A DNA stretch of 64,000 nucleotides from positions 1,738,225 to 1,802,224 of the forward strand of contig OY282363.1 of NCBI GenBank assembly GCA_958295695.1, given 5' to 3'. Origin of the DNA: an uncultured Alphaproteobacteria bacterium. GTDB taxonomy: Bacteria; Pseudomonadota; Alphaproteobacteria; SP197. Position numbers and translations under genes: made by a program. The notes under the pieces are model-generated. The model saw only the letters and a program-made list of their open reading frames with translations, was not told where the DNA came from and searched no databases. Shown here in pieces: positions 901 to 30,853 of the stretch (position 1 is the stretch's first letter; each line of letters starts with the position of its first letter).

Positions 901-1361
901 CCTTCATCAGCAGGAACAGGCGACAGGGATCCGTGGGGCGCGGCTCGAACTCCAGAGCCTCGTACCAAGCCCGCGCCTCGTCGTCCTTGGTGTGGACAGG
1001 AAGCGCCCGGATATCGGCGGCCGCGGCGGTCGAGGATATCCTGGAAGGCCCGCCACCGCCGGTCGTCGATCCGGAACATCCGCCGGGCGACCAAGGTGTC
1101 CTCGGCGGCGGCGACCCCGGCCTCGAGCAGAAACTCCGTGACGTTCTTGTGCGACAAGGCCGCGGCCCGCTGGAGCAACGCCTTCACGCTCGGGGTCGTC
1201 CGAAACTCGATGCGCTACGACTTGTTTTCGGCGATGGCCGTGAGCGTTCCTCCGAGAGGATCCGCCGGCGTCCTGTCATACGGATATTGTACGGACAAGG
1301 ACGCATCGACGCCGGATGTCAATGGCGCTCCAACATGCCTCGCACGAGCCCCAGGCGACGA

Positions 1362-1900
1362 CTACTCGGTCGCCGCGGCCTCATCCTCTTCCTTCATCTG
1401 CTTGAGCAGTTCGGCGTTGTCCATCATGGCCTGCTTGCGGGCGCTACAGGAGCAACCGCCGTACTGGGCCCAGGTCACGGGATCGACGAAGGGGCCCGAC
1501 CACATGCCGACGCCGTCCCGTTCGGCGGCCGCGGCGCGCTCGAGATACTCCGCGCCGCGGTCTTCGTCGGGCACGGCAAGCCCGGCGTCGATCATGGCGC
1601 CGGCGAGGTCGCGGCCCGCGGCGCTGCAACGGCCCACGAGGCCCGCGCCCGTTTCCGCGATGTCCGAGCAGACGACCTCGTCGGCGCCGATCGCTTCTTC
1701 GAGATAGAGCGCCGCGTCCCAGCCGCAGGACCAGACGTTGTCCCTGGAACCGCAATTCTGGGTGATGGTCGGCGCGTGTACGCCATGGAGGGTCACCTCC
1801 CGTTCGCCGAACCGCACGGTGTCGCCGTCCATCACCATGGGTTGGCCGGCGAACTCGGCGAACGCCAGAGCGGGCGCCAGAGCGAGGATTGCCGTCAGCA
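1362..1900 (-). CDS. Secreted thermonuclease (staphylococcal-nuclease-like) family protein
   Basis: C-terminal 182 aa of ORF 1362..2696, from a GTG at 1900. It has a signal-peptide-like N-terminus (VKRLLTAILALAPALAFA) followed by the SNase-like core (MVMDGDTVRF...EVTLHGVHAPT...). Confidence 0.7.
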
Positions 1901-1984
1901 GACGTTTCACGGTGTCCCTCCATCGTGTTTGCCGAGCGACCGGAGTATGGCCCAGGCGCGGGAACCGCGCCAAGAGGCCGGATT

Positions 1985-2788
1985 TCACGTTTCCGCGCGC
2001 CGCAGAACGGCGATGAGCTCGTCTTCGAACGGAACGAGCGCGAGGTCGCGGCCGATGCGGGCGGCCAGCGCTTCGACGTGGCTCCGGTAGGTCTCCCGCA
2101 TGCCCTTCTCCCGGCCGCCGAGCGACCGTGCGGGGTAGGTGACGACCACTTGGGGGACGTCGGCGAGGCGCCGGAGCAGCGCGAGGGACGCGCCGTCGTC
2201 CTGCCGGTCGAGGCAGGGCAGGGTTTTGAGCGCCAACGCCAAGTCCGCGCCGCCGCTCTCGATTCCGCCCAGAACGTCGGCCCACAGGCTTTCGCCCGGC
2301 CGGCCGAGGCGCTTGAGAAGCCGCCCCGTCGCCTCCGCGACGCGGCGGTTCGCCTCCACGGCGCGGTAGCGGGTCGAGGGCGGTAGACCCATGAACGGCA
2401 GCGCGAAACCGTTGAAACCCGCCGCGACATCCAGGATGTGCGCGGGGAACCCGGTCTGGGCCCAGATGGCGGCGTAGAAGGCGTCCAGACGGTCGAGCCG
2501 CTCCGCGCTGGAGCGGTGCAGGCGGAGGACCGCCCGGCATGTCTCGACGATGTCGGCGCCGGTGTCCAGCGCATCGAGCCGGCGTTCGAGCGCGCGCAGG
2601 CTCCCGGGATCGAGGTAGGCGCCGAAAGCCTGATGCAACTTGCGCTTGGCGGCCTTCAACGCCTCGGCGGGCCTCGAATGCCGCTCGATCGCCCATCGCG
2701 CCGTTCGCTCCAGGGCCTCGGGCGCCAGGTCGCGGTACTTCGACGATGACGAGAGGACCCCGACGACCGAAGCGAGGGGATCAGCCAT
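1985..2788 (-). CDS. FmrO/Rmt/ArmA-family 16S rRNA (guanine1405-N7)-methyltransferase homologue
   Basis: 267 aa. Block-wise similarity to RmtB/ArmA: SSKYRDLAPE vs SKKYRALCPD, KRKLHQAFGAY vs KKKLHQIWGSY, LDVAAGFNGFAL vs LDFGCGFNPLAL, ALKTLPCLDRQ vs LLKMLPVLKQQ, YPARSLGGREKGMRETY vs FPTRSLGGRGKGMEANY. It overlaps the upstream tgt-like stop by 8 bp. Confidence 0.8.
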   Translation of the reverse strand: MADPLASVVGVLSSSSKYRDLAPEALERTARWAIERHSRPAEALKAAKRKLHQAFGAYLDPGSLRALERRLDALDTGADIVETCRAVLRLHRSSAERLDRLDAFYAAIWAQTGFPAHILDVAAGFNGFALPFMGLPPSTRYRAVEANRRVAEATGRLLKRLGRPGESLWADVLGGIESGGADLALALKTLPCLDRQDDGASLALLRRLADVPQVVVTYPARSLGGREKGMRETYRSHVEALAARIGRDLALVPFEDELIAVLRRAET

Positions 2789-3866
2789 CGGCCTCGCTCC
2801 GGCGCATCCTGTCGATCAACCGGGCGTAGAATCCGAGGTTGTGGCGCGTGGCCAGCCGCTCCGCCGCCGCATCGCCGATCTTGAAGAGATGATGAAGGTA
2901 GGCGCGCGAGGGGCCTTCGGGATCGAGGGACGGGTCTAGGGCCGACCGGTCTCGCGAGTGCCGTTCATGCTCCATGTAGAGAACATCATAAGATTTATTA
3001 TTTTTCAATATATTATCACTATTATCTAATGTAATATATAAACGCTTGCGACGAGCGTTGCGAGTGGGCAGGGCGCAGTCGAACAGACGGTAGCCGGCCC
3101 GCCAGGCCGCGAGCATGTTTTCCGGCTTTCCGATGCCGAGCGCATGCTTGGGGGCGTCCGCGGGCAGCAGGTCCGCGGTCATGGCGACCATGTCCGTCAG
3201 CAGGCCGTCGTCGCCGATGGGCCAGCCGCCGAAGCCGAAACCGTCGAAACCCATGCCGGCGAGCTCGCCGGCGCAACGTCTGCGCAGGTCGGGATCGGCG
3301 CCGCCCTGGACGACCGCGAAGAGCAGGGGGCGCCCGGCGGCGGCGGCGCCCGGTTCGCAGCCGGCCCGGGCGACGAATTCGTCGCGGCAGCGCCGCGCCC
3401 AGTCGAGCGTCCGTTCGATCCCGGCCCGCTGCGCCTCGGCGGGATCGTTGGGGTGGGTGCACTGGTCGAGGCAGAACAGGATGTCGGCGTCGAGATCGAG
3501 CTGGCGCCGGATACACTTCTCGGGCGTGAGGAGGCGCTTCCTGGCGCCCTTTTCGTGCCGGTAGACGAAGCCCCTGTCGGTCACGCTGCCGAGGCCCGCG
3601 CCGGACGCGGCCATCGACCACGCCTGGAAGCCTCCGGAATCGGACGCGGCGATGCCGTTCCAGCCCATGAAGCGGTGGACGCCGCCCACGGCCTTCACGG
3701 TCGAGGCGCCCGGCCGCGTGGCGAGATGCAGGCTGTTCACCATCAGCGCCTCGACGCCGCATTCGGCGAGGTCGCGGGAATCGAGACCCTTCACGACCGC
3801 GCGCGTGCCGTCGGGCAGGAACGCCGGCAGGCGGAGCGGGCCGCGGCGGGTGCCGAGGACCTTCAC
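2781..3866 (-). CDS. tRNA-guanine transglycosylase (Tgt) paralogue lacking the zinc-site cysteines
   Basis: 361 aa. Tgt catalytic motifs are present (SDSGGFQ; LDQCT; GIGKPENM; FDCALPTRNARRKR; SRAYLHHL...RHNLGFY). The CxCxxC zinc site is replaced by LDPSLDPEGPS. The gene contains a 71-bp AT-rich in-frame segment (2974..3044). Its 4-bp start overlaps the rsmI stop. Confidence 0.8.
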   Translation of the reverse strand: MKVLGTRRGPLRLPAFLPDGTRAVVKGLDSRDLAECGVEALMVNSLHLATRPGASTVKAVGGVHRFMGWNGIAASDSGGFQAWSMAASGAGLGSVTDRGFVYRHEKGARKRLLTPEKCIRRQLDLDADILFCLDQCTHPNDPAEAQRAGIERTLDWARRCRDEFVARAGCEPGAAAAGRPLLFAVVQGGADPDLRRRCAGELAGMGFDGFGFGGWPIGDDGLLTDMVAMTADLLPADAPKHALGIGKPENMLAAWRAGYRLFDCALPTRNARRKRLYITLDNSDNILKNNKSYDVLYMEHERHSRDRSALDPSLDPEGPSRAYLHHLFKIGDAAAERLATRHNLGFYARLIDRMRRSEADG

Positions 3867-4573
3867 GCCCGGCCCTTCGTCCGCGGGAACTTCGGGTTGT
3901 CGCCGGCGATCACGACCGTGACCTCGCCCCTGGGCGTCTCCTCCGAGAACCGCGCCGCGAGGGTCGAGATCCAGCCCCGGGCGGTTTCCTCGAACATCTT
4001 GGTGAGCTCGATGCAGACCGCCGCCCTGCGGTCGCCATAGACCTCCAGCGCGTCGGCCAGCAAGGCGCCCAGCCGGTGGGGCGATTCGAACAGCACCTGG
4101 GTGTGGCCGCTGCCGGTTTCGGCGGCCAGGAAGGTCCGCCGCTTGCCGGCCTTGCGCGGCGGGAAGCCGCGGAACGTGTAGCTCGCCGTCGGCAGGCCCG
4201 AGAGCGCGAGCGCGGTGGCGACCGCCGTCGGTCCCGGAACCGCCTCGACCGCGAAACCCTCTTCGGTGGCCATACGGACCGCGCGAAAACCGGGATCGCT
4301 GAGCCCCGGCATGCCGGCGTCGGTGGCGAGCCCCACCTTGAGACCCCGGCGCAGCAGGCCCGCCATGCGTTCCGTGGCCCGGTCCTCGTTATGGTCGTGG
4401 CAGGAGAAGACCACGGGCGGGCTGCGCAGGCCGAAGCGCTCGTAGAGCTTGCGTGTGCGGCGCGTGTCCTCGCAGGCGAGAGCGTCGAGCGAACCCAGGG
4501 TATCGAGGACCCGCTTCGAAATGTCGTCCAGGTTGCCGATAGGCGTGCCGATCAGGATGAGCGTGCCCGTCAT
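3863..4573 (-). CDS. rsmI: 16S rRNA (cytidine1402-2'-O)-methyltransferase
   Basis: Start set at the internal ATG (MTGTLILIGTPIGNLDDIS...) of ORF 3863..4714. Tetrapyrrole-methylase fold motifs are typical of RsmI. Confidence 0.85.
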   Translation of the reverse strand: MTGTLILIGTPIGNLDDISKRVLDTLGSLDALACEDTRRTRKLYERFGLRSPPVVFSCHDHNEDRATERMAGLLRRGLKVGLATDAGMPGLSDPGFRAVRMATEEGFAVEAVPGPTAVATALALSGLPTASYTFRGFPPRKAGKRRTFLAAETGSGHTQVLFESPHRLGALLADALEVYGDRRAAVCIELTKMFEETARGWISTLAARFSEETPRGEVTVVIAGDNPKFPRTKGRA

Positions 4574-4632
4574 GCGCCTTCCGTTCTTGACCCCGCGTCC
4601 GCGCCCCGTTTCCATGCCCGCGTTCGGGCGGG

Positions 4633-6729
4633 TTGTCGAGCATGGCGGGTTCGAAGGAGACCCTCGCGGCCCTGGTGGCGCCGCGGCGCATCGCGGTGGT
4701 CGGCGCCACCCCACGCGAGGGCGCGGTGGGCAACCGGGTGATCCGGCATGTCGCCGGGCCGCGCTTCGCCGGCGGCGTCGTCGCGGTCAACCCGGGCTAC
4801 GGCGAGGTGCTCGGCCGCACTTGCCACCCTTCGCTGGAAGCGCTTCCCGACGCCGCCGATTGCGCGGTCATGTGCGTCGGCGACAACCGCGTCGAGGCGG
4901 CCGTCGAGGACGCCGCGCGCGCCGGCGTCAAGGCGGTCGTCCTGCTCGGCCGCCTCTACGATCCGGGCCACGGCGGCCCCACGCTCCCGGAGCGTGTCGC
5001 GGGCCTCTGCCGGGAGGCCGGCATGGCCGCCTGCGGGGCGAACTGCATGGGTGTGTTCAACACCATCGACGATGTGTGCCTGGCCATGAGCCACCTGCCC
5101 GGGCTGGACCGGCCCGGGCGCATCGGCCTGCTGTCCCACAGCGGCTCGACCTGGTCGGGGCTGGGCGGAAATCACCGGCCGTTGCGTTTCGGGATCGGCG
5201 TCTCGATGGGCAACGAGCTCGTGACGGGCCTGGCGGACTATCTCGAGTTCCTCGTCGAACGTCCCGAAACCTCCGCCATCGGTCTCGTGCTGGAGACGGT
5301 GCGCGACGGCGACCGTTTCGTCGCCGCCGCGGAGGCGGCGGACAGGGCCGGCGTCCCCCTCGTCGCCCTGAAACTCGGCAAGACCGAGAAGGCGCGCGGG
5401 TTCGCGCTCTCCCACAGCGGCGCCCTGGCGGGCGACGAGCGGGTCTACGACGCCGTGTTCCGCCGCCGCAACGTCATCGGCGTCGACACGCTCGACGAGA
5501 TGGCGGATACGCTGGAGGCGATGGCCTGCGGCCGCGCGCCCACGGCCGACACGGTTGGAATCCAGACAGATTCCGGCGGCGAGCGGCAGCTCATCGCCGA
5601 TCTCGCCGAGCGCAACAAGGTGCCGCTCGCTGTCTTCGGCGAGGCCACCCGGGCGGCGCTGGCCGGGGTGCTCGATCCGGGCCTGGAGCCCGACAACCCC
5701 GTGGATTACTGGGGCGAGGGAGGTCTTCCCGTCGCGCCCAGGGTCATGGACGCGATCGCGCGGGCGCCGGAGGTCGGGGTCGTGGTCTTCTCCACCAACA
5801 TGGTGTCGGGCCGTGCGCTGCTCAACGCCTCGACCGCCGCGCTCGAGGACGCCCACCGGGCGACGGACAAGCCCTGCATGATGCTGGCGAACATCTCCGA
5901 CGCCGTCGACGCCGGGGAGGCCGCGCGCCTCCGCGACGCGGGAATCCCCGTCCTTTCGGGCACCGAGACCGGTCTCAGGGCGATCGGCCATCTGATCGGA
6001 TGGCACGCGCGCCGGAGAGAGAGCGGAGAGCGCGGCGGCGCGGTCGAACCACCGGATTCCGGGATCGTGGCGTACTGGCGTCGGCGGCTCGAGGACCGCG
6101 CGCCGGCGCCGGAGGAGGCGATCGCCATGGTCGCCGATTTCGGCGTGCCGGCGCCCGAGACCGCGGTGTGCGCGGACGAGCGGGACGCGGTCGCCGCGGC
6201 GGAACGCATCGGATTCCCGGTCGTGCTGAAGACGGCGGACCCTTCGATCCCGCACAAGACCGACGTGGGCGGCGTTGTTCTGGATATCGGGACCGATGAC
6301 GAGCTTCGCGCGGCCTACCGGGCCATGGCCGGCGCGCTCGGATCCCGCGTCCTGATCCAGCCGATGGTCTCCCCAGGTGTCGAGATGCTCGTCGGGATGA
6401 CGTCGGATCCGACCTTCGGGCCGGTCATGACCCTGGCGACGGGCGGTGTCCTGACGGAGGTGCTGGACGACGCGGTGGCGGCGGCGCCGCCGGTGTCGCC
6501 CGGCGAGGCCGCCGATCTGGTCGCCGGCCTCAAGGGTTCGGTCCTGCTCGATGGCGTGCGCGGCGCGCGGCCGGCGGACCGCGACGCGCTGGCCCGGGCC
6601 GTGTCGCGCCTCTCGGCGATGGCGGTGGCGCTCGGCGACCTGATCGGCGCGTTCGACGTCAATCCCCTGATCGTCCACGAGCGGGGCGTGACCGCCGTCG
6701 ACGCGCTGGTGACGCCGCGGGGACCGTGA
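4633..6729 (+). CDS. Acyl-CoA synthetase (NDP-forming), CoA-binding + ATP-grasp domains (acetate--CoA ligase [ADP-forming]-like)
   Basis: 698 aa. N-terminal CoA-binding Rossmann fold (RRIAVVGATPREGAVG), a succinyl-CoA-synthetase-like middle, and a C-terminal ATP-grasp (FPVVLKTADPSIPHKTDVGGVVLDI). Confidence 0.85.
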   Translation: MSSMAGSKETLAALVAPRRIAVVGATPREGAVGNRVIRHVAGPRFAGGVVAVNPGYGEVLGRTCHPSLEALPDAADCAVMCVGDNRVEAAVEDAARAGVKAVVLLGRLYDPGHGGPTLPERVAGLCREAGMAACGANCMGVFNTIDDVCLAMSHLPGLDRPGRIGLLSHSGSTWSGLGGNHRPLRFGIGVSMGNELVTGLADYLEFLVERPETSAIGLVLETVRDGDRFVAAAEAADRAGVPLVALKLGKTEKARGFALSHSGALAGDERVYDAVFRRRNVIGVDTLDEMADTLEAMACGRAPTADTVGIQTDSGGERQLIADLAERNKVPLAVFGEATRAALAGVLDPGLEPDNPVDYWGEGGLPVAPRVMDAIARAPEVGVVVFSTNMVSGRALLNASTAALEDAHRATDKPCMMLANISDAVDAGEAARLRDAGIPVLSGTETGLRAIGHLIGWHARRRESGERGGAVEPPDSGIVAYWRRRLEDRAPAPEEAIAMVADFGVPAPETAVCADERDAVAAAERIGFPVVLKTADPSIPHKTDVGGVVLDIGTDDELRAAYRAMAGALGSRVLIQPMVSPGVEMLVGMTSDPTFGPVMTLATGGVLTEVLDDAVAAAPPVSPGEAADLVAGLKGSVLLDGVRGARPADRDALARAVSRLSAMAVALGDLIGAFDVNPLIVHERGVTAVDALVTPRGP

Positions 6730-18000: not shown

Positions 18001-18190
18001 CGTCGTCCTCCAGGAGATCTTCGATGTCCTTCTCCAGCTTCACGCGAACCTCCCGCTCGATCTTGACGTTGAGATCGATCACGATCGGGTCCTTGGGCGC
18101 CTCGACGCGAACGGTCGGCTGGAAGGCCGCCATGAACAGCGCGACCAACGCCGCTTGATACGTGGGAAGGGTTCTTCGAGAGGACCGCAT
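17987..18190 (-). CDS. ynbE: YnbE-like small lipoprotein
   Basis: 67 aa. VRVEAPKDPIVIDLNVKIEREVRVKLEKDIEDLL closely resembles E. coli YnbE (EVAAPKEPITINMNVKIEHEIHIKVDKDVEALL). Confidence 0.7.
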   Translation of the reverse strand: MRSSRRTLPTYQAALVALFMAAFQPTVRVEAPKDPIVIDLNVKIEREVRVKLEKDIEDLLEDDDESF

Positions 18191-18230
18191 GACATCGTCC
18201 GTTCGCGGATGGCGACCCTGGAACGCGATC

Positions 18231-18251
18231 GGAATTTCCTAGTTTAGGGTC
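18231..18251. repeat. IS left terminal inverted repeat
   Basis: ggaatttcctagtttagggtc is the exact reverse complement of 19909..19929. Confidence 0.8.
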
Positions 18252-18448
18252 TTTATATCTGGGCGGTTGACTCTGCGCCGCCAAGGATTCCAAGCTCCCT
18301 CCATCGCCAAACCAACCATGGGACGCCCCTGCGTCGGGCTGCCCGTGAATACAAGACCGTGCGAGCGGGAATCAGCGGGGACCCTGAAACCCATGGTTGT
18401 TTGGCGACCGGCCCGGCACTCCCGCCGGCCGGAACGCTGGAGCGAGTC

Positions 18449-19075
18449 ATGAAGCGGATGATGATTGCGGCCCTCGCGGCACTGCTGAGCGGCGCGGCCT
18501 CGGCTGAGGACTACGAGGAGATGCGTCCCAAGGACAGCAAGCTGCGCCTCGGCGTCCTCGGGGAAGAAGCGGAGGGCTCGTGGTTTCTGGAGGAAAAGAA
18601 ATCGTTTGGGACGTTCCGCTGCGACTACGGTTATTGGGGCTTCGACGACGATCAGCGGAGCAGGGTCAAGGCCCAATACTGCTGGTCGGACAACGTCTCC
18701 TCTTGGGACGACAGTGGCGGCTACACTGGCGAGGAGGCCGACACGGACGAGTTCCTGGAATGGAACGATGAGACACGCCTTGCCGACAGCAGGGACAACG
18801 CCGAGGAAGGCCCTACCATCGAAACCGTCGTCGGAGATGTTGTCGTACACGCCTTCGACGTGGAGAAGGACACGTCTTGGAAGACCTACAGGGAGTGCAT
18901 GGGGTTTCACATGGTCTGGGGCAAGGGGTACGGCGTATCGCGCAAACTCTACGCCAAGTCGCTGACCTTCTACGCCTGCGACAACGCCACCAGCACCATG
19001 TCGGAGGCCAAGCTCCTCCGCATTCTGTCCAGCTTCAGCATCGAAGGTGAGTTCGACGCGCTGGTAGAGAACTAG
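18449..19075 (+). CDS. Secreted hypothetical protein (signal peptide; acidic, Trp/Cys-containing) carried as IS passenger
   Basis: Start at MKRMMIAALAALLSGAASA (signal peptide) inside ORF 18359..19075. Local GC (~60%) is lower than the window average. It lies inside the IS boundaries. Confidence 0.5.
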   Translation: MKRMMIAALAALLSGAASAEDYEEMRPKDSKLRLGVLGEEAEGSWFLEEKKSFGTFRCDYGYWGFDDDQRSRVKAQYCWSDNVSSWDDSGGYTGEEADTDEFLEWNDETRLADSRDNAEEGPTIETVVGDVVVHAFDVEKDTSWKTYRECMGFHMVWGKGYGVSRKLYAKSLTFYACDNATSTMSEAKLLRILSSFSIEGEFDALVEN

Positions 19076-19078
19076 CCG

Positions 19079-19833
19079 TCAGTCTTCCAGCGCGAGCGGA
19101 ATGGTCTTGTTCAGCTTGGGGAAGGCGCGGTTGAGGTCGCCCTTGAAGCGGTTCCAGTTGGGGGCCGCCCGCATGAGCGCCATGACAGCCGCCGAGTGCT
19201 GGTTGAGCTTGACGTGGCCGGGGTCCGGCGTGAACCATTGATGGTGCGTCGTGCGCCGCCGTCCTGTCGGCAGTGTCGGATTGATCCGCTTCAACTCATC
19301 CAGGACGCCGGGCGCCAAGCGTTCGTAGACGAGATCGTTGGTGTAGTGGCCGATGACGGCGGGGCGCTTGTGGCCGTCCGGGCCGGGCCGTCGCCCTTCG
19401 TGCCCTTGCGAGGCTTGCCACCGATAAAGGTCTCGTCCATCTCGACGATGCCGGCCAGAAGCAACCGGTGCTCGGCTTGGGTCATGGCCCGCTTGATCTG
19501 CATGGCGATCCGCCAGGCCGTGTTCTTGTTCACGTCGAGATCGCGGGAAAGCTGGAGCGCCGACAGGCCCTTCTTGGCGTTCAGCATAAGCATGATCGCC
19601 AGAAACCACTTCTGGAGCGGCAGGTGCGTGCGGTGGAAGATCGTCCCGACCGTCACGCTGAACGAGGTCTTGCAGTCGTAGCAGCGATGGCGGCGGCGTG
19701 CGTCGTTGCTGGGAGCGGTGTTGGCCGACCCGCAATAGGGGCACTTCGGCTCGCCCTTCCACCGTGCCGCCTCAAGATGAGCGACGCAGGATTCTTGGTC
19801 GGGAAACCACTCGAAAATCTGTATGATGTTCAT
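19079..19833 (-). pseudogene. IS1595-family transposase, interrupted by a frameshift near 19385
   Basis: The N-terminal part (ORF 19291..19908 from MNIIQIFEWFPDQESCVAHL...CPYCGS...CYDCKTSFSVTVGTIFHRTHLPLQKWFLAI) and the C-terminal DDE part (ORF 19079..19762) are in different frames. The switch is at a ggcccggcccgg repeat. Confidence 0.7.
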
Positions 19834-19908
19834 CGGCAATCCGTCCTTTCGTGGCGCGTTCGATCCGGTGACAGGATGAACATGACCCCCGATTGGGCGG
19901 ATTATCAA

Positions 19909-19929
19909 GACCCTAAACTAGGAAATTCC
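19909..19929. repeat. IS right terminal inverted repeat
   Basis: gaccctaaactaggaaattcc is the exact reverse complement of 18231..18251. It is flanked by the aacgcgat target duplication. Confidence 0.8.
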
Positions 19930-19942
19930 AAACGCGATTGTG

Positions 19943-22900
19943 TCAGAAAACGGACAGGCGTTCTCGGATTTCTTCCGGGAGGCGCCACGCGCCGAGGCCG
20001 TGGAGCAGGATCTCGTCGAGGTCGCCGGCGAGGTTGACGTTGAGTTCGATCGGATAGCCGTCATGAAAGCCCGGATTGGCCCCGGCGATATGGACGCCGA
20101 GTTCCGCCGCGCCGCCCGCCGCGCGGTCGATGTCGATCGCCAGGGCGCTGAACCGGAAGTCCGACAGGACATCGAGCACTTGTTCCATGTTCTCGTCCAT
20201 CGGGCCGAAGGGCGCTGGCCGTCCGTCCGGAATGTAGCGCAGCAGCCCGGCGGAATCGGCGTCGAGCCGGCCGTGCGCGATGACGATGTCGCCGCCCGTC
20301 ATTCGGACGGGAATGGAGCCCGTCAGTCTCGCGTCGGTCTCGATCCATGGAACGTCGAGGTCGTCCAGCAGCGTCGCGAGGTCGACGCCCTGGATGTCGA
20401 GCAGCGCCTCGTTGCCGTCCGGCGCGAGGCGGAGGACCGAGGGGCGGGCCGCGATGCGCCCGCCGGCGAGCCCGGCGGACGCGGCGTCGACGCGCAGGCT
20501 GCCGTCGCCGGGGAGCGCGAGGGTGACCGCGAGGTCGGTCAGGGGAAGGCCGGCATCGAGCCTTTCGGCCGCGAGCGTCTGTTTCGGCGGGGTCGAGAGC
20601 GGATCGACGTTGGAGAACGTCACCTCGCCTTCGAGGCCCTCGATGGCGACGCCGCCGTTCCGGCCTGACAGGCCGAGAAGGGAGAGCGTGAGGTCCGATG
20701 ACGCGACGCCGTCGTCGATCGCGATCTTCCCATGGAGCTCGACGGCGCCGGAGACCTCCTCCAGAAGGCCGCCATAGAGCGGAGACACCTCGTTCGGCTG
20801 GCTCCCGCCGGGCTCGAACCGGATCGGCGGGACGCGGATCAGCGCGCGAAACAGGTCGTCCGACGGCCGGTAGCTCGACTCCACGTTGGCGAGGAAGCGC
20901 CGGTCGCCCATGTGGAGAGTGCCGTTGAAGCGGACATCGTCGCCCAACGGCCAGACCGGCATGACCGCAACGTCGGCGGCCAGCGGCGCGAAACGGGCGG
21001 GTTCGCGGAGGTCTTCGATGACCCGGATGTCGGCGGTGGCCTGCGGCCAATCCGACAGGCCGTTGTTGTACGTGAAGAGGAGCCGGATATCGGCCAGACG
21101 GAGGTCGGGTCCCTCGACGAGGATGTCGCCGCCCTCGGTTTCGACCGTCCCCTGGAGGTGATGGCGGCCCAGGCTGCCGAACCGGACGCCCATCGACGGC
21201 AGAGTTCCGTCGACAGCCGCGATCGTCCCGCCGTCCTCGATCACGTCGAAACGCACTCCGGCCGGGCCGGTCAGCAGGCGCGCGTCCCAACTCCAGTCCT
21301 CGCCGAAGCGTTCCAGGACCAGCAACGGCAGCAGCTCGGCCTCGAGCTTCACGGAGGTCGCGCGATGCGAGCGGAGACGCGGATGCCGGAGGGTCCGGAT
21401 GTCGATCCAGGCGGTGTCGGCTAGGCGGACGTTGAGGCCGTTGTCCACCAGTTCGAAGTCGAGCGGCAGCTCGGCCAGGACCCCCGTGGCGGCCGTATCG
21501 AGGACGGTCACCGTGTCGGCTTGAAAGAGCGCGACGGGGTCGGCCTCCGCGCGCGTCGCCCCGTCCGCATGGCCGATTCTCAGCGGGAGGTCGAGGACGA
21601 TGGCGGTAGCGTCAGCGCCGGCGGCCGAGAGCGTGTCGAGCCTGGCCCGCAGGCTCGCCGCGCCGTCGAACGCGGCGGGCGCGCCCGCGATACCGCCGGC
21701 GACGCGGATGGCGCCCGTCGCGCTCCGGGGCGCGAGCGCGCCCGAGGCGGCGAACTCGAGCGCGGAAACATCGAAGGCGGCCAGCGCGCCATCGGGAGTC
21801 AGCTCCGCGTCGCCGCGGATGGAAAGCCGGCCGTCGAGGTCCCCGCCGCTCCTCAAGGAAGCGTCCAGGGCCGCCGCGATGGCGATCGACTCGCCCGAGA
21901 CGGTCGCGTCGGCGACGATCCCCTCCGGTGGAAGCGTCAGGTCGAACGGACGGTCGAGAGCCGCCGCGACGATCCCGCCCGCCGCCTCGGGCGGAGGCAG
22001 GCGCGCGCCCAGGATCGCCCCGCCCGGCCGCGCGGTCAGGCGCAGACGCCGCCCGTCCGCGGCGATGTCGAATGACAGCGCCGAGGCCTCGACGGAAAAC
22101 CGGTCGGACAGGGACATGGCCCCGGTCTCCAGGTCGATCCGGCCCGTCAGGGCGATGGCGTGGAGGTCGAGCGGCCGGTCGGGTGGAACGAAGGCCTCGA
22201 ACGAGACGTCCAGGCTCGCGGGGCCATGCAGATCGAGCGAATCGACCATGGGCGGGGTCATGGAGTCGCGAACGGCGAACGCGCCCGTCGCGGCGACGCG
22301 GAGCCGATCCCCGGCCATGCCGGAGACGATCGAGACGGCGGCCGAGAGCGGCGCCTCCTCGACGCCGAAACCGATGTCGGCGACGAACGAGCGGCCGTCC
22401 CACGACCCTTCGGCGGTCAGGCCGCCGAGGTCCGGGCCGCCCGCGGCGACCTCGGCCTCGGCGAGCGAAACGACGACCCTGTCGCGGCCCGAGACGGGGT
22501 CGGGTTCGAGGGACAGGACGCCGGACACGTGGCCGAACGCGCCGTCCACGCGCCATCGGCCGGAGCCCGAGACCGATGCGCCGGTCGATTCCAGGGCGGC
22601 GTCGAGCCGTGCGCGGATCGTGTCGAGCGGATGGACAAGGGCGATCTCGGCGTCCTCGATGACGAGGGCCGCGAAGGGGAGCGGTTCGCGGAGCCCGTTT
22701 CCGTCATCGCGCCGGTTCAGCAATCCGGCCAGAGGAGACGCCGGGACGCCGTCCCCGTCGAAACGGATCGCGAGATCGACGCCGGCGAGGCGCACCGATT
22801 CGACCCGCCCGTCGAGAAGCCGCCACGGACGAAAGGACAGTTCGACGCGGCCGACCGCGCCGGCCCCGGGAACGGAGACGCCGGTCAGCACCATGCGGCC

Positions 22901-25178: not shown

Positions 25179-26876
25179 CTAGCCGCCGCGGATGAGGTGG
25201 ACGATCAGCACGATCGCGAGCACCAGCACGATGGCGAGCGACGCGGCGCTCATCGCGGGGTCGCGCGCAAACAGACCCCGTGGGCCGTTCCAGCGCAAGG
25301 CCAGACCGATCGCGCCTTGGACCAGGTCGTGCGCGGCGGCCCCGAGCGGCGCGCCGGCGTCCGCCAGGAGGCGCCGGCCCCGTCGCGCCAGGCGCGGCAG
25401 CAGCCAGCGGTAGGTCCACTCCGCGTCGATATTCACGCCGGGCAGCTCGGGAGGATAGAGCCGGTGGAGCTTCAGCAGCGTGAAGGCGAGCGCGGAGAAG
25501 AAGAGGAGCTGGCACTGGGTCACCACATGCGGCCACGTGTAGGGCGCGTAGTCCACCGCATGGGGCAGCAGACCGTAGAGGAGATCCGGATAGACGCCGT
25601 TGAAGACGCAGACGAAGGCGGCGACCGCCATGGCGATCAGCATGGCCGGGGGCGCTTCCTTCGGCCGCAGGCCGGAATCGTGGGCGAAGAAGGCGAAGAA
25701 CGGGATCTTGATCCCGGCGTGGTGGAAAACGCCCGCCGAGGCGAACAGCAGCGCCAGCCAGATCCAGTCGTGACCCTCCTCGAGGGCGGCCGCCATGATC
25801 ATGGACTTCGAGACGAAGCCGGAGAACAGCGGGAAGGCCGAGATCGAGGCCGCGCCGACGATACAGAAGCCGGTCGTCATCGGCATGGTCTTGTAGAGGC
25901 CGCCGAGTTCCGAGCCGCCCATCCTGCCGGTGCGGAACAGCACCGCGCCCATGGTCATGAACAGGAGGCCCTTGAAGATCACGTCGTTGAAGGCGTGGCC
26001 GACGGCGCCGTTGATCGCCATCTCCGTGCCGATGCCGATGCCGACCACCATGAAGCCCAGCTGGTTGATCATGCTGTAGGCCAGAACCCGGCGGAGGTCG
26101 TTCTCGATCACGGCGTAGAAGATCGGGAACAGGGCCATCGCCGCGCCGATCGCGATCAGCTCCTCGGTTCCGGGGAACAGGCGGGCGAGCGCGTAGATCG
26201 CGACCTTGGTCGTGAACGCGCTCATCAGCACGGCGCCGGTCGCCGTCGTCTCGGGATAGGCCTCCGTGATCCAGCCGTGAAGCAGCGGGAAGCCGCACTT
26301 GACGCCCAGCGCGAGGAACAGGAGCCAGGCGGCCATGCCGTCGAGCTCGAGCGGAGCGAGGGCGAGGTCGCCGCCCTGCGCCGAAAGCACGACGACGCCG
26401 GCCAGCATCAGCAGGCCCGACGCGACCTGGATGACGAGATAGCGGATCGCCGTGCGTTCCGCCGAACGGGTCCGGCGCGCCAGGATGAGGAAGGCCGAGG
26501 TGAGCGCGAGGCCCTCCCAGAACAGGAAAAGCGCGACGAGATCCCCGGCGAACACCGCGCCGAGGGCGCATCCGGCGTAGGCGAGCGCCGCGGTGTGCTG
26601 CATGCGGTCGCGGGTGTGCAGGCTGTAGAGGCCCGCGATCAGCGCCGCCAGATGGAACAGCCAGCCGAACAGGGACGAAAGACGGTCGACGCTGACGAGG
26701 GTCACGTCGTGCGCGAGGAGCCCGGCCGTCAGGACAACGCCGGGATCGAGGAACCAGAGGTTGACCACGCCCACGACCGGCGTCGCGACCATGACCGCGC
26801 CGCGGACGGAACCGCGGGTGACGGCGGCGAGCGCGGCGCCGGCGAAGAAGACGAGGAAGGGCGCGACGCTAGTCAT
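25179..26876 (-). CDS. MrpD/NuoN-like proton-conducting membrane transporter subunit (copy 1)
   Basis: 565 aa polytopic membrane protein of the complex-I antiporter-like (NuoL/M/N, MrpA/D) family. Confidence 0.8.
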   Translation of the reverse strand: MTSVAPFLVFFAGAALAAVTRGSVRGAVMVATPVVGVVNLWFLDPGVVLTAGLLAHDVTLVSVDRLSSLFGWLFHLAALIAGLYSLHTRDRMQHTAALAYAGCALGAVFAGDLVALFLFWEGLALTSAFLILARRTRSAERTAIRYLVIQVASGLLMLAGVVVLSAQGGDLALAPLELDGMAAWLLFLALGVKCGFPLLHGWITEAYPETTATGAVLMSAFTTKVAIYALARLFPGTEELIAIGAAMALFPIFYAVIENDLRRVLAYSMINQLGFMVVGIGIGTEMAINGAVGHAFNDVIFKGLLFMTMGAVLFRTGRMGGSELGGLYKTMPMTTGFCIVGAASISAFPLFSGFVSKSMIMAAALEEGHDWIWLALLFASAGVFHHAGIKIPFFAFFAHDSGLRPKEAPPAMLIAMAVAAFVCVFNGVYPDLLYGLLPHAVDYAPYTWPHVVTQCQLLFFSALAFTLLKLHRLYPPELPGVNIDAEWTYRWLLPRLARRGRRLLADAGAPLGAAAHDLVQGAIGLALRWNGPRGLFARDPAMSAASLAIVLVLAIVLIVHLIRGG

Positions 26877-27117
26877 CGTAATGGTCTTCCCCGCGCATGA
26901 CCGCCTTGCGCAGTTCCTTGGCGGCGAGGACGAGGATGACGCAGGCGACGAGGCCGTAGACCGCGTAGAACCCCGGCAGCGTTTCCCAGGGATGGTCGAT
27001 GTGCCGGTGGACGACGAAATCGGCCGCGAAAACGATGGCGCAGACGGCGTAGAGCGCCCGGATCGCTCGTTTCACGTTCTTCGGGTTGTCGAACAGGTGG
27101 GTTTTCTTGTCGTTCAT
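26869..27117 (-). CDS. Small hypothetical membrane protein within the Mrp-like operon
   Basis: 82 aa (MNDKKTHLFDNPKNVKRAIRALYAVCAIVFAADFVV...) with one or two TM segments. Its start and stop overlap the flanking antiporter genes. Confidence 0.35.
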   Translation of the reverse strand: MNDKKTHLFDNPKNVKRAIRALYAVCAIVFAADFVVHRHIDHPWETLPGFYAVYGLVACVILVLAAKELRKAVMRGEDHYDD

Positions 27118-30064: not shown

Positions 30065-30068
30065 GGCC

Positions 30069-30434
30069 TCAGTCGCTCTCGCGCTCGCGGATCTCGTCTT
30101 CCTCGATCGAGCCGTAGGCCTCCCGGATGCGGACGATCAGCGCGAGAGCCAGCGAGGTCGTCGCGACCGACACGACGATGGCGGTGAGGATCAGGACATG
30201 CGGCAGCGGGTTGGAGTAGCGCGCCGCCCCTTCCAACACGATCGGCGCCGTGCCGTCCTCGACGTAACCGATCGAGATGTAGAGAAGGAACACGGCGGTC
30301 TGGACGATGTTGAGGCCGACGACCTTCTTGATCAGGTTGCCGCGCGTCATGACGATGTAGAGGCCGGTCATCAGCAGGACGACCGCGCCCCACTGGACCG
30401 CGTGGCCGGACAGGAACGAGAGCGGGTCCGTCAT
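30069..30434 (-). CDS. mrpC: MrpC/NuoK-like subunit
   Basis: 121 aa. Three TM segments with a NuoK/MnhC-like pattern (VVGLNIVQTAVFLLYISIG). Confidence 0.8.
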   Translation of the reverse strand: MTDPLSFLSGHAVQWGAVVLLMTGLYIVMTRGNLIKKVVGLNIVQTAVFLLYISIGYVEDGTAPIVLEGAARYSNPLPHVLILTAIVVSVATTSLALALIVRIREAYGSIEEDEIRERESD

Positions 30435-30853
30435 CGCCGGCGGCGCTCGGCGAAGGTGTAGAAGACGGCGGTCAGCACCCCGGCGACCGTGACGCCGACG
30501 CCCAGTTCGATCAGGACGATGCCGACATGCTGGCCGTGCACGGGGTCGCGGCTGTCGAGCGCGCCGTAGTCGAGGAAGGCGCCGCCCAGGCCGAGCGCGA
30601 CGAACCCGACCGTCGCGTAGAGCGCGAGGCCCAGCGAGGCCATGGCGGTGACGGCCGCGAACGGCAGCGCCTGGATGGTGCGTCGGACTCCGAACACGAT
30701 GGCGTAGACGATGAAGCCGGTCGCGAAGATCACCCCCGCCTGGAAGCCGCCGCCCGGTCCGTAGTCGCCGTGCAACTGCACATAGAGGGCGAACAGAAGG
30801 ATGAAGGGCGCGAGCATCTTGACGACGACCCGGACGATGACGTTGTCGCTCAT
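30431..30853 (-). CDS. mrpB: MrpB-like subunit
   Basis: Start at MSDNVIVRVVVKMLAPFILLFALYV. MnhB family. Confidence 0.75.
   Translation of the reverse strand: MSDNVIVRVVVKMLAPFILLFALYVQLHGDYGPGGGFQAGVIFATGFIVYAIVFGVRRTIQALPFAAVTAMASLGLALYATVGFVALGLGGAFLDYGALDSRDPVHGQHVGIVLIELGVGVTVAGVLTAVFYTFAERRRR

What the first reader, a model, noticed from the sequence alone, without database searches (positions are those of the whole stretch)
1985..2788. Rmt/ArmA-family 16S rRNA methyltransferase homologue in a GC-rich proteobacterial chromosome
The protein shares the diagnostic blocks of acquired 16S-RMTases (RmtB/ArmA) that confer pan-aminoglycoside resistance through m7G1405. Such genes are best known from aminoglycoside-producing actinomycetes and from plasmids in pathogens. 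Here the gene is embedded in a housekeeping rRNA/tRNA-modification operon in a non-producer-type genome, suggesting an intrinsic housekeeping homologue. That is relevant as an evolutionary source or reservoir for this resistance class, and as a predictor of intrinsic high-level aminoglycoside resistance.
Basis: partly seen in the sequence, partly recalled or inferred. Interest (0 to 1): 0.7.

Follow-up and report, generated by a model that had tools for sequence, protein, structure and literature searches.

The report
Rmt methylase in conserved tgt operon
The gene is real and looks like a working ribosome methylase of the type that makes pathogens resistant to most aminoglycosides; it sits in a three-gene RNA-modification operon that is conserved across many bacterial phyla and matches the gene neighbourhood still attached to the clinical resistance genes rmtB, rmtD, rmtE and rmtG.

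Summary
The ORF at 1985-2788 (-) is a genuine FmrO/Rmt-family protein: Pfam E 2e-42, an AF2 model with TM 0.85-0.88 to Sgm, and every residue shown to be essential in RmtC kept or conservatively replaced. The most likely function is m7G1405 methylation of 16S rRNA, giving intrinsic resistance to 4,6-DOS aminoglycosides. No aminoglycoside gene cluster lies in the window.

The "housekeeping operon" reading needs correcting. The gene is the last cistron of a translationally coupled operon, RsmI-like, then TGT-like, then Rmt-like. The TGT-like protein scores below the Tgt equivalog cut-off, has an altered base pocket (GGWPIGD instead of GGLAVGE) and lacks the zinc cysteines.

- **Linkage:** TGT-like and Rmt-like genes are adjacent in 66 of 80 metagenome loci and 17 of 21 genome loci, across several phyla and in shuffled gene orders.
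- **Fusions:** natural TGT::FmrO and FmrO::RsmI fusion proteins exist.
- **Actinomycetes:** there the module sits inside a queC-queD-queE-queF (preQ1) cluster.
- **Plasmids:** remnants of the same module flank plasmid-borne rmtG, rmtD1, rmtE2 and rmtB2.

The window therefore carries a chromosomal, vertically inherited member of that module family. It is not a direct progenitor, at 25-35% identity to the acquired enzymes. What the TGT-like partner modifies is unknown.

The parts
1985..2788 (-). Rmt/FmrO-family SAM-dependent methyltransferase (267 aa), predicted 16S rRNA m7G1405 methyltransferase; last cistron of the operon
   Evidence: Pfam FmrO E 2e-42. NCBIfam Rmt_gen 178 bits, below the 250 cut-off. 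PDB relatives Sgm, RmtB, RmtF and RmtC. AF2 pLDDT 95; Foldseek top 16 hits are all m7G1405 methyltransferases. RmtC functional residues conserved.
2781..3866 (-). Divergent tRNA-guanine-transglycosylase-like protein (361 aa, GTG start). Catalytic Asp residues kept, base pocket GGWPIGD, CxCxxC zinc motif lost. Its stop overlaps the Rmt start by 8 nt (ATGGCTGA).
   Evidence: Pfam TGT E 6e-79. TIGR00430 255.8 bits, below the 306.75 cut-off. 34% identity to Z. mobilis Tgt but 52-57% to TGT-likes of other phyla. Alignment A2. Motif census. AF2 pLDDT 93, TM 0.86-0.88 to Z. mobilis TGT. Junction sequence.
3863..4573 (-). RsmI-like (TP_methylase fold) methyltransferase, 236 aa. ATG at 4573 preceded by GGAAGG. 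Its stop overlaps the TGT-like GTG start by 4 nt (GTGA).
   Evidence: TIGR00096 180.4 bits, above the 167.9 cut-off. 38% identity to E. coli RsmI, lacking its C-terminal ~45 aa. The 236-aa product is an exact match to a protein called on a 3.4-Mb contig. Junctions.
4574..4632 (.). Short divergent intergenic region between the operon and the ADP-forming acyl-CoA synthetase gene (4633..6729 +); presumed promoter region of the operon
   Evidence: Inferred from gene positions. No sigma-70 consensus was found there. The same divergent arrangement occurs in relatives L002, L007, L010, L012, L013 and L038.
1911..1984 (-). 74-nt spacer after the Rmt stop codon, with a GC-rich hairpin (GGCGCGG-UUC-CCGCGCC, about 1955-1971); weak candidate terminator
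   Evidence: Sequence. The fold is not exceptional (z -1.6) and the terminator scan did not call it.
1362..1910 (-). Downstream secreted protein resembling staphylococcal nuclease (GTG start, SD GGAGGG). Syntenic only within the alphaproteobacterial relatives and probably not part of the module.
   Evidence: tblastn 54-65% identity at the same position in L001, L002 and L008-L013 only. No Pfam hit. The nuclease resemblance is my reading of the sequence, not a test.

Best explanation
The ORF encodes a functional SAM-dependent methyltransferase of the Rmt/FmrO family. Like Sgm, RmtB and RmtC, it would dock on the assembled 30S subunit through its N-terminal helical domain, flip G1405 out of helix 44 and methylate N7. 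m7G1405 blocks binding of 4,6-disubstituted deoxystreptamine aminoglycosides (kanamycin, gentamicin, tobramycin, amikacin), so the organism is predicted to be intrinsically resistant when the operon is expressed.

The gene is not free-standing. It is the third, translationally coupled cistron of an RsmI-like, TGT-like, Rmt-like operon. This operon is an ancient module inherited vertically in this Rhodospirillales-type lineage and found sporadically in many phyla.

Inferred roles of the partners:
- The RsmI-like enzyme 2'-O-methylates C1402, three nucleotides from G1405.
- The TGT-like enzyme inserts a 7-deazaguanine (preQ1) into RNA, most likely at tRNA position 34.
- Together they would keep decoding accurate when aminoglycosides are present or when h44 carries m7G.

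Shown here: family membership, fold, residue conservation, operon anatomy, cross-phylum linkage, gene fusions, linkage to que genes, and identity of this context with that of the plasmid-borne rmt genes. Inferred: the G1405 target in this organism, the resistance phenotype, and the substrates of the two partners.
For: Family and fold.
- Pfam E 2e-42; phmmer to Sgm 4.5e-37.
- AF2 pLDDT 95 and pTM 0.91. Foldseek TM 0.85-0.88 to Sgm, 0.81-0.90 to RmtB and 0.84-0.86 to RmtF; the top 16 hits are all m7G1405 enzymes.

Functional residues. Those defined by the RmtC-30S structure and MIC mutagenesis (PMC10054953) map as K20>K17, Y21>Y18, R50>K48, H54>H52, Y60>Y58, S107>S93, D160>E145, K204>K188, R211>R195, K236>R221, R241>R226 and M245>M230. 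Across 112 environmental homologues, Y18 is kept in 111, H52, S93, K188 and aromatic-58 in all 112, R226 in 103 and M230 in 97.

Operon anatomy. The junctions overlap as GTGA and ATGGCTGA. The same 8-nt overlap is seen in L001, L002 and on the rmtG plasmid.

Linkage.
- A TGT-like gene is adjacent in 66 of 80 metagenome loci (24 of the 28 with at least 1.3 kb on both sides) and in 17 of 21 genome loci.
- An RsmI-like gene is adjacent in 28 and 13 loci respectively.
- With T, F and R standing for the TGT-like, FmrO-like and RsmI-like genes, the orders TF, RTF, RFT, FT, TFR and FTR all occur.
- Starting instead from the TGT-like side, two of two lineages (Armatimonadota CP070816.1 and the P0174 lineage) have an FmrO gene next door.

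Fusions. TGT::FmrO occurs as P0322. FmrO::RsmI occurs in Actinoallomurus and Streptomyces.

Link to que genes. QueF-II, QueD, QueE and QueC flank the module in actinomycetes, each above its NCBIfam cut-off. QueE-like genes flank it in two other lineages.

Plasmid contexts. rsmH-tgt-rmtG-rsmI', rsmH'-tgt-rmtD1, tgt'-rmtE2, and tgt-MPE-rmtB2, where MPE is a metallophosphoesterase gene. These acquired enzymes confer high-level aminoglycoside resistance (MIC >=256 ug/mL in review PMC9311965). Module-type Rmt proteins therefore act on the ribosome without help from the partners.

Physiological rationale. In V. cholerae Tn-seq under sub-MIC tobramycin, loss of tgt (-15.8x), queADEF, rsmH (-8.4x) or rsmI (-8.4x) is detrimental (PMC10117853).

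Native gene. GC and GC3 are typical of the window. Synteny with the flanking acyl-CoA synthetase (ACS) gene and nuclease-like (SNase-like) gene (ACS / module / SNase-like) is kept in relatives at 54-64% Rmt identity.
Against: - The NCBIfam Rmt equivalog score is 178, below the curated cut-off of 250.
- The SAM-binding motif I deviates from the family consensus DxACGLNP. It reads D120-V-A-A-G-F-N-G127: C>A is shared by only 10 of 112 homologues, and P>G is unique to this protein. The ribose-binding Asp is Glu, as in 15 of 112.
- No rRNA gene lies in the window, so G1405 and the h44 sequence of this organism were not checked.
- There is no expression or biochemical evidence.
- The tight coupling to a TGT-like enzyme is unexplained. 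If the native substrate is a nucleotide first altered by the TGT-like enzyme, m7G1405 could be only part of the story.
- The TGT-like protein of this subclade has lost the zinc site, which from memory is needed for activity in canonical Tgt. Its activity is therefore uncertain.
- I could not determine whether canonical tgt and rsmI copies exist elsewhere in the genome.
Confidence: 0.62

Rival explanations
1. The three enzymes form a new RNA hypermodification pathway aimed at one site. The TGT-like enzyme would exchange a guanine in 16S rRNA helix 44 (G1405 or G1401), or in another RNA, for preQ1 or another 7-deazaguanine. The FmrO-like and RsmI-like enzymes would then methylate that nucleotide or its neighbours. 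On this view, m7G1405 formation by captured rmt genes is the activity left when the partners are lost.
For: - Two of the module's enzyme families, three when RsmH is present, act on C1402 and G1405 of h44.
- TGT::FmrO and FmrO::RsmI fusions exist.
- The TGT-like clade has a conserved non-canonical base pocket, GG-W-P-[IV] in 116 of 120 members, plus PDGT and LD[QH]C signatures and two insertions.
- All tested members score below the Tgt equivalog cut-off.
- A complete preQ1 pathway is co-located in actinomycetes, a group that from memory generally lacks queuosine.
- Both TGT and Rmt chemistry concern position 7 of a guanine.
Against: - RmtG, RmtD, RmtE and RmtB confer resistance in hosts where the TGT-like gene is truncated (rmtE2) or absent (rmtB1).
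- The Rmt residues that position N7 of G1405 are invariant.
- Residues aligned with Z. mobilis K52, K264, R286 and R289 are kept in the TGT-like protein. From memory these contact the anticodon loop, which suits a tRNA substrate.
- G1405 lies in a CGU context in a helix, not in a UGU loop.
- No 7-deazaguanine has been reported in rRNA in the papers I could search.
Confidence: 0.15
2. Plain housekeeping co-location. The neighbours would be the organism's ordinary RsmI and Tgt, and the Rmt-like gene merely shares their operon with no specific functional tie.
For: - The RsmI-like protein passes the TIGR00096 cut-off.
- The TGT-like protein keeps the catalytic Asp residues and the TGT fold.
- In one lineage the pair sits beside thrS-infC-rpmI-rplT.
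- I could not show that second copies of tgt or rsmI exist.
Against: - The TGT-like protein is only 34% identical to the canonical alphaproteobacterial Tgt of Z. mobilis, yet 52-57% identical to TGT-likes from other phyla.
- It lacks queA linkage and the zinc motif.
- Adjacency survives repeated gene-order shuffling and fusion across phyla.
- The FmrO family is rare, at 1152 clusters among 1.84 billion, so it cannot be a general housekeeping partner.
Confidence: 0.12
3. Self-resistance gene of an aminoglycoside producer, as with sgm, kgmB, grmA and fmrO.
For: The closest solved relative is the producer enzyme Sgm.
Against: - No aminoglycoside biosynthesis genes occur in 64 kb; the genes surveyed are primary metabolism and transport.
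- The same ACS / module / SNase-like synteny holds in several related marine or uncultured Rhodospirillales-type genomes.
- Sgm's nearest environmental relatives are the loci without a TGT-like gene (L006, L109), not this clade.
Confidence: 0.03

Closest known systems
Sgm, GrmA, KgmB and FmrO (producer-type m7G1405 16S rRNA methyltransferases; Sgm PDB 3LCU/3LCV)
   Same: Same Pfam family and the same two-domain fold (TM 0.85-0.88, rmsd 2.5 A). This is the best sequence match (E 4.5e-37, about 32% identity). Gly stands at the RmtC-S239 position, as in producer enzymes.
   Different: Not located in an antibiotic gene cluster. Motif I is altered (AAGFNG in place of ACGLNP). It is embedded in a TGT-like/RsmI-like operon, whereas Sgm's nearest environmental relatives lack the TGT-like neighbour.
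Acquired 16S-RMTases RmtB, RmtD, RmtE and RmtG with their captured flanks (for example rsmH-tgt-rmtG-rsmI' on pKP13f and pEc13)
   Same: The same gene neighbourhood: a TGT-like gene of the same clade (41-45% identical to the window's) immediately upstream. For rmtG the 8-nt overlap is identical and an RsmI-like gene follows. The association was noted for rmtG in the literature: 'putative tRNA ribosyltransferase' upstream (PMC3904158), and 'operon with rsmH, tgt, rsmI', cited in PMC9311965.
   Different: Only 25-35% identical to the window protein, and in a separate branch of the NJ tree. The plasmid copies are IS91/ISCR- or IS26-bounded fragments. The window copy is intact, chromosomal, and has the order RsmI-TGT-Rmt with no RsmH.
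Bacterial tRNA-guanine(34) transglycosylase Tgt (Z. mobilis, E. coli)
   Same: Same fold (TM 0.86-0.88). The DSGGFQ (Asp102) and FDC..PTR (Asp280) catalytic motifs are kept, as are Asp156 and Cys158.
   Different: 34-35% identity. Scores below the equivalog cut-off. The pocket reads GGWPIGD against GGLAVGE, so Pro replaces Ala232. From memory, the backbone NH of Ala232 contacts N7 of guanine. Other differences are PDGT for PVGT, LDQC for FDEC, two insertions, and in this alphaproteobacterial subclade loss of the CxCxxC zinc ligands. There is no queA neighbour.
RsmI (16S rRNA C1402 2'-O-methyltransferase)
   Same: TP_methylase fold, passes TIGR00096, 38% identical to E. coli RsmI over about 230 aa.
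   Different: Lacks the N-terminal 9 and C-terminal ~45 residues of E. coli RsmI. It is fused to an FmrO domain in some actinomycetes.
DpdA / Dpd 7-deazaguanine DNA-modification systems
   Same: A TGT paralogue clustered with preQ0-pathway genes, in the actinomycete versions of the module.
   Different: No PADLOC hit. No DpdA model hit for the window protein, and only about 25 bits against a cut-off of 200 for relatives. The partners are rRNA methyltransferase homologues, not DNA-metabolism proteins.

Membership tests
Rmt/FmrO m7G1405 16S rRNA methyltransferases | Full-length match to Pfam PF07091 above the gathering score | tested here: met
   145.7 bits against 27; residues 15-259 cover profile positions 2-253 of 255.
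Rmt/FmrO m7G1405 16S rRNA methyltransferases | Score above the NCBIfam equivalog cut-off (NF000466 Rmt_gen) | tested here: not met
   178 bits against a cut-off of 250. By this curated rule it is a family homologue but not an automatically named Rmt equivalog.
Rmt/FmrO m7G1405 16S rRNA methyltransferases | Two-domain architecture: N-terminal helical 30S-docking domain (N1/N2) plus a class I Rossmann methyltransferase domain | tested here: met
   AF2 pLDDT 95. Helices span residues 4-112, followed by an alternating beta/alpha fold. Foldseek TM 0.75-0.90 to Sgm, RmtB, RmtF and RmtC over the whole length.
Rmt/FmrO m7G1405 16S rRNA methyltransferases | Residues essential for 30S docking, h44 distortion and G1405 positioning (RmtC Y21, H54, Y60, K204, R241, M245 and others) | tested here: met
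   Y18, H52, Y58, K188, R226 and M230 are identical. K17, K48, R195 and R221 are identical or conservative.
Rmt/FmrO m7G1405 16S rRNA methyltransferases | SAM-binding motif I (DxACGLNP) and the acidic residue binding the SAM ribose | tested here: inconclusive
   D120 and G124 are kept and S93 is kept. However C>A123, L>F125, P>G127 and D>E145 are changed. The effect on SAM binding is unknown.
Rmt/FmrO m7G1405 16S rRNA methyltransferases | Produces m7G1405 and confers high-level resistance to 4,6-DOS aminoglycosides | not testable with these tools
   Needs heterologous expression, MIC measurements and primer extension or mass spectrometry.
Bacterial Tgt (tRNA guanosine(34) transglycosylase) | Score above the TIGR00430 equivalog cut-off | tested here: not met
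   255.8 bits against 306.75 for the window protein. Four other module TGT-likes score 271.5-306.5, all below the cut-off.
Bacterial Tgt (tRNA guanosine(34) transglycosylase) | Catalytic Asp102 and Asp280 (Z. mobilis numbering) and the TIM-barrel fold | tested here: met
   DSGGFQ and FDCALPTR are present. TM 0.86-0.88 to Z. mobilis TGT.
Bacterial Tgt (tRNA guanosine(34) transglycosylase) | Structural zinc site CxCxxC...H | tested here: not met
   The window has DPSLDPEGPSRAYLHHL. All members of the alphaproteobacterial subclade (P0102-P0124) lack the three cysteines, whereas the other clade members keep them.
Bacterial Tgt (tRNA guanosine(34) transglycosylase) | preQ1/guanine pocket Leu231-Ala232-Val233...Glu235 | tested here: not met
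   Trp-Pro-Ile...Asp in the window protein. GG-W-P-[IV] occurs in 116 of 120 clade members.
RsmI (16S rRNA C1402 2'-O-methyltransferase) | Score above the TIGR00096 cut-off | tested here: met
   180.4 bits against 167.9, although only profile positions 2-225 of 275 are matched.
RsmI (16S rRNA C1402 2'-O-methyltransferase) | C-terminal extension present in E. coli RsmI | tested here: not met
   The alignment ends about 45 residues before the E. coli C-terminus.
DpdA / 7-deazaguanine DNA modification | Match to DpdA models, or Dpd partner genes nearby | tested here: not met
   No PADLOC hit. No NF041059 hit for the window protein.
Aminoglycoside-producer self-resistance gene | Location within or beside an aminoglycoside biosynthetic gene cluster | tested here: not met
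   26 window ORFs scanned against Pfam (25 with hits: primary metabolism, transport, Mrp antiporter, Ppk and similar); none is an aminoglycoside biosynthesis family. Only 64 kb could be examined.

The most novel reading that the evidence does not exclude
On this reading, the natural role of the Rmt/FmrO family is not stand-alone antibiotic resistance. It would be one step of a previously undescribed multi-enzyme modification of the decoding centre. A dedicated TGT paralogue (GGWP pocket) would place a 7-deazaguanine, preQ1 or a derivative, into ribosomal RNA helix 44 or another non-tRNA target. The Rmt-like and RsmI-like enzymes would methylate the same few nucleotides. That would be the first 7-deazaguanine in rRNA. 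It would also mean that the clinical rmt genes are broken-off pieces of this pathway.
Probability: 0.12. Interest if true: 0.9.

Novelty: new variant of a known kind. Interest (0 to 1): 0.58.

Why it matters
Taken alone, the methyltransferase is a new and rather divergent member of a well-known resistance family. The context is the more useful result.

- **Natural habitat of the family.** In the environmental loci sampled here, the usual setting of Rmt-type enzymes is a compact TGT-like / RsmI-like (± RsmH, ± preQ1 biosynthesis) module, not an aminoglycoside gene cluster. The module is spread over Alphaproteobacteria, Actinomycetota, Myxococcota, Armatimonadota, Coatesbacteria, Dormibacterota and others.
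- **An old observation explained.** The 'tRNA ribosyltransferase' fragments long noted beside rmt genes on plasmids are remnants of this module. The module gives a signature for tracing the still-unknown donors of rmtB, rmtD, rmtE and rmtG. It also marks organisms that are likely to be intrinsically pan-aminoglycoside resistant.
- **A testable question.** Why is a guanine-exchanging enzyme with a re-modelled base pocket genetically welded, even fused, to a G1405 N7-methyltransferase? The answer is either a coordinated defence of decoding fidelity against aminoglycosides or a new RNA modification.

Tried and rejected
- **preQ1 riboswitch.** I looked for a preQ1 or other riboswitch upstream of the operon and in eight related loci. 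None was found; only tRNAs appeared.
- **Defence-system and DpdA models.** No hits.
- **Promoter and terminator scans of 1200-5000.** Nothing convincing. The post-gene hairpin is not better than shuffled sequence (z -1.6).
- **Locating the window's own genome.** Exact look-ups of the TGT-like and Rmt-like products failed. The RsmI-like product led only to an 87-kb contig of a near-identical strain.
- **Second tgt or rsmI copy.** I could not test this.
- **Aminoglycoside gene cluster in the window.** Rejected.
- **Recent horizontal transfer into this genome.** Rejected, because composition is typical and synteny is shared with relatives at 54-64% Rmt identity.
- **Literature.** Ten full-text searches found no description of a general TGT-Rmt module or of deazaguanine in rRNA. 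They found only the rmtG-specific remarks. The 2024 MMBR deazaguanine review was not available.
- **Tree quality.** The NJ tree has no bootstrap support and midpoint rooting. The grouping of all acquired enzymes on one branch may be a long-branch or composition effect.
Full report
**1.

The minus-strand ORF 1985..2788 (267 aa) has the codon-position GC pattern of real genes in this 70% GC window. It matches Pfam FmrO (PF07091) over its whole length (E 2e-42). Its best NCBIfam hit is the generic Rmt-family m7G1405 methyltransferase model, at 178 bits against a curated cut-off of 250.

All its solved-structure relatives are aminoglycoside-resistance m7G1405 methyltransferases: Sgm at 4.5e-37, then RmtB, RmtF, RmtC and ArmA. 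An AlphaFold model built on 66 homologues is confident (pLDDT 95, pTM 0.91). Its 16 best PDB matches are again only these enzymes, with TM 0.85-0.88 to Sgm.

**2. It looks catalytically and functionally intact**

The cryo-EM and mutagenesis study of RmtC on the 30S subunit (PMC10054953) defines three groups of residues. One group docks the enzyme on h24/h27/h44/h45. A second distorts h44. A third positions G1405 and SAM.

In the phmmer alignment to RmtC every one of these residues is kept or conservatively replaced in the window protein:

| RmtC | Window |
|---|---|
| K20 | K17 |
| Y21 | Y18 |
| R50 | K48 |
| H54 | H52 |
| Y60 | Y58 |
| S107 | S93 |
| D160 | E145 |
| K204 | K188 |
| R211 | R195 |
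| K236 | R221 |
| R241 | R226 |
| M245 | M230 |

In 112 environmental homologues the same positions are almost invariant. The one oddity is the SAM-binding loop, D-V-A-A-G-F-N-G instead of D-x-A-C-G-L-N-P, together with Glu for the ribose-binding Asp.

I therefore regard m7G1405 methylation, and resistance to 4,6-DOS aminoglycosides, as the most likely function. It remains untested.

**3. The surroundings**

The gene is the third cistron of a tightly packed operon on the minus strand.
- RsmI-like: 3863..4573, 236 aa, ATG preceded by GGAAGG.
- TGT-like: 2781..3866, 361 aa.
- Rmt-like: 1985..2788.

The stop and start codons overlap as GTGA and ATGGCTGA, which indicates translational coupling. 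The operon diverges from an ADP-forming acyl-CoA synthetase gene and is followed by a secreted nuclease-like gene.

The rest of the 64 kb is ordinary chromosome. It holds a GlmS fragment, a Rieske oxygenase, a DsbA-like protein, ferritin, PLP enzymes, CoxD/E-like proteins, a YdbH-like protein, an Mrp antiporter, polyphosphate kinase and ABC transporters. There are no aminoglycoside biosynthesis genes.

The same arrangement of synthetase, operon and nuclease-like gene recurs in uncultured Rhodospirillales-type genomes. Against L002, identities are 84% for RsmI-like, 76% for TGT-like and 63% for Rmt-like. The operon is therefore native and vertically inherited in this lineage.

**4. The neighbours are not ordinary housekeeping genes**

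The TGT-like protein keeps the TGT fold (TM 0.86-0.88 to Z. mobilis TGT) and the catalytic aspartates. Several features set it apart:
- It scores below the Tgt equivalog cut-off (255.8 against 306.75).
- It is only 34% identical to the canonical Tgt of Z. mobilis, itself an alphaproteobacterium. It is 52-57% identical to TGT-likes from Latescibacterota, Hydrogenedentes, Coatesbacteria and Armatimonadota.
- The clade has its own signatures: PDGT for PVGT, LD[QH]C for FDEC, HALGIG for YLMGVG, two insertions, and above all GG-W-P-[IV] in place of GG-L-[AS]-V-G-E in the base pocket (116 of 120 members).
- The alphaproteobacterial subclade, including the window, has also lost the three zinc-binding cysteines. 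It nonetheless remains highly conserved and is confidently modelled.

The RsmI-like protein passes the RsmI model but lacks the C-terminal ~45 residues of E. coli RsmI.

**5. The trio is a conserved module**

I sampled loci using the Rmt-like protein as the starting point.

| Sample | Loci | TGT-like adjacent | RsmI-like adjacent |
|---|---|---|---|
| Species-representative genomes | 21 | 17 | 13 |
| Metagenome loci | 80 | 66 | 28 |
| Metagenome loci with ≥1.3 kb on both sides | 28 | 24 | not counted |

The carriers include Alphaproteobacteria, Coatesbacteria, Dormibacterota (RsmI-like neighbour only in the locus sampled), Actinomycetota (Actinoallomurus, Dactylosporangium, Streptomyces, Streptosporangiaceae), Myxococcota and a deltaproteobacterium.

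Starting instead from the TGT-like protein, both lineages examined have an FmrO gene next door. In Armatimonadota CP070816.1 the order is RsmI-like, TGT-like, FmrO. In the second lineage it is QueE-like, TGT-like, FmrO.

Writing T, F and R for the TGT-like, FmrO-like and RsmI-like genes, gene order varies (TF, RTF, RFT, FT, TFR, FTR) while adjacency persists. Natural fusions exist: a 628-aa TGT::FmrO protein and FmrO::RsmI proteins in Actinoallomurus and Streptomyces. Persistent adjacency through rearrangement, together with fusion, is classical evidence of functional coupling.

An all-against-all comparison of neighbours found only one other recurrent cross-lineage partner, namely 7-deazaguanine biosynthesis. 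QueD occurs in 9 loci, QueE in 8 (including two non-actinobacterial lineages) and QueC in 6. In Actinoallomurus soli, QueF-II, QueD, QueE and QueC all pass their NCBIfam cut-offs. The TGT-like enzyme thus very probably uses preQ1.

**6. Link to clinical resistance genes**

Searching plasmids showed four contexts:
- rmtG lies in rsmH-tgt-rmtG-rsmI', cut by ISVsa3. Its tgt/rmt overlap is the same 8 nt as in the window.
- rmtD1 lies in rsmH'-tgt-rmtD1.
- rmtE2 lies behind a truncated tgt next to an IS91-family element.
- rmtB2 on a Providencia plasmid lies in IS91-corA-tgt-metallophosphoesterase-rmtB2.

These plasmid TGT-likes are 41-45% identical to the window's, against the 31-41% identity of canonical Z. 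mobilis Tgt to the TGT-likes. The literature has noticed the neighbour for rmtG, as a 'putative tRNA ribosyltransferase' (PMC3904158) and as an 'operon with rsmH, tgt, rsmI' (cited in PMC9311965). From memory, similar remarks exist for rmtA and rmtD.

In ten full-text searches I found no statement that this is a general, phylum-spanning module, nor any link to que genes or fusions.

In a neighbour-joining tree the TGT-linked loci are spread over the whole family. Sgm nests next to the few loci without a TGT-like gene. The window protein sits in an alphaproteobacterial clade, sister to a Coatesbacteria-type clade, and far from the acquired enzymes. The tree has no support values.

The family is small: 1152 clusters at 50% identity among 1.84 billion representative proteins.

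**7. How it most likely works**

Shown:
- an intact Rmt-type enzyme;
- translational coupling to RsmI-like and TGT-like genes;
- evolutionary coupling of the three;
- preQ1 supply genes where the host presumably lacks them;
- module-type Rmt enzymes that confer resistance by themselves after capture. Examples are rmtE with a truncated tgt and rmtB1 with none. MICs come from PMC9311965.

Inferred:
- Rmt methylates N7 of G1405 in the 30S subunit and blocks 4,6-DOS aminoglycosides.
- RsmI-like methylates the 2'-O of C1402, three nucleotides away.
- TGT-like inserts preQ1 into RNA, most simply at tRNA G34. Residues aligned with Z. mobilis K52, K264, R286 and R289 are kept. From memory these are anticodon-loop contacts.

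A rationale for the partnership comes from V. cholerae. Under sub-MIC tobramycin, the RNA-modification genes whose loss is most harmful include tgt, queADEF, rsmH and rsmI (PMC10117853). These are exactly the partners found in the module. The operon would thus combine a drug-exclusion methylation with modifications that protect decoding fidelity.

The re-modelled TGT pocket and the fusions leave room for a more radical reading, in which the TGT-like enzyme acts on rRNA or the three enzymes build one hypermodified site. I rate that at about 0.12-0.15.

**8. Verdict**

The enzyme alone is a new, fairly divergent member of a known family. The system it belongs to is a variant that has been glimpsed only as debris around rmtG.

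The finding is of moderate to good interest. It redefines the natural context of Rmt enzymes and gives a marker for tracing their donors. It also poses a directly testable question about why a guanine transglycosylase is welded to a G1405 methyltransferase.

The main weaknesses are four:
- There is no biochemical evidence.
- The gene scores below the NCBIfam cut-off and has an unusual motif I.
- I could not check for second copies of tgt and rsmI.
- The tree lacks support values.

Noticed in passing
window 2781-3866 (-); relatives P0102-P0124: The alphaproteobacterial subclade of the TGT-like protein has replaced the CxCxxC zinc-binding motif with a cysteine-free stretch (DPSLDPEGPSRAYLHHL). 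It nonetheless stays 68-86% conserved within the subclade and is modelled with pLDDT 93. All other members of the clade keep the cysteines. A zinc-free TGT fold would be unusual.
   Followed up: partly
L019 6517-6638 and 13315-13436 (Dactylosporangium sp. NPDC051541): The whole cassette is bracketed by a 122-nt direct repeat (93% identical), each copy containing a tRNA-Met gene. The cassette holds TGT-like, two FmrO-likes, RsmI-like, QueD, QueE and QueC. This looks like an island inserted at, or duplicated with, a tRNA gene.
   Followed up: partly
P0322 (628 aa); L016 9980-11824; L022 9932-11587; P0333 (907 aa): Natural fusion proteins exist: TGT::FmrO (P0322) and FmrO::RsmI-like in Actinoallomurus soli and Streptomyces sp. 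4N509B. P0333 joins an SMC_N/AAA domain to a complete FmrO domain; this may be a real fusion or a merged gene call.
   Followed up: partly
L016, L018, L019, L061: Actinobacterial and some other loci carry two tandem FmrO-like paralogues. The second copies form their own branch of the tree but keep all the invariant functional residues. Their division of labour is unknown.
   Followed up: no
L122 (Providencia rettgeri plasmid p12100-PER) 4007-6748: rmtB2 still has a longer ancestral flank: IS91, corA, TGT-like, metallophosphoesterase, rmtB2, then a cation:proton antiporter fragment. This flank may help trace the donor of rmtB.
   Followed up: no
L123 (ERZ19488992 contig_3), 3708-5587: In a near-identical strain or assembly the TGT-like and FmrO-like genes are called as truncated products (309 and 184 aa). 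These are either frameshift errors of a long-read assembly or real inactivation.
   Followed up: no
window 18001-20000: GC drops locally to 0.62, against about 0.70 elsewhere. Two ORFs lie there: 18359-19075 (+), which has no Pfam hit, and 19291-19908 (-), which was not scanned. Possibly foreign DNA.
   Followed up: no
window 26000-32000: Strong positive AT skew (0.21-0.24) over minus-strand Mrp/NADH-antiporter-type membrane protein genes (25179-26876, 28589-30064). The likely cause is the amino-acid composition of membrane proteins, but I did not examine it.
   Followed up: no
window 33338-33414 and 33843-33919 (+): Two tRNA genes, tRNA-Pro(TGG) and tRNA-Arg(TCT), separated by a small ORF. 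They are unrelated to the finding.
   Followed up: no
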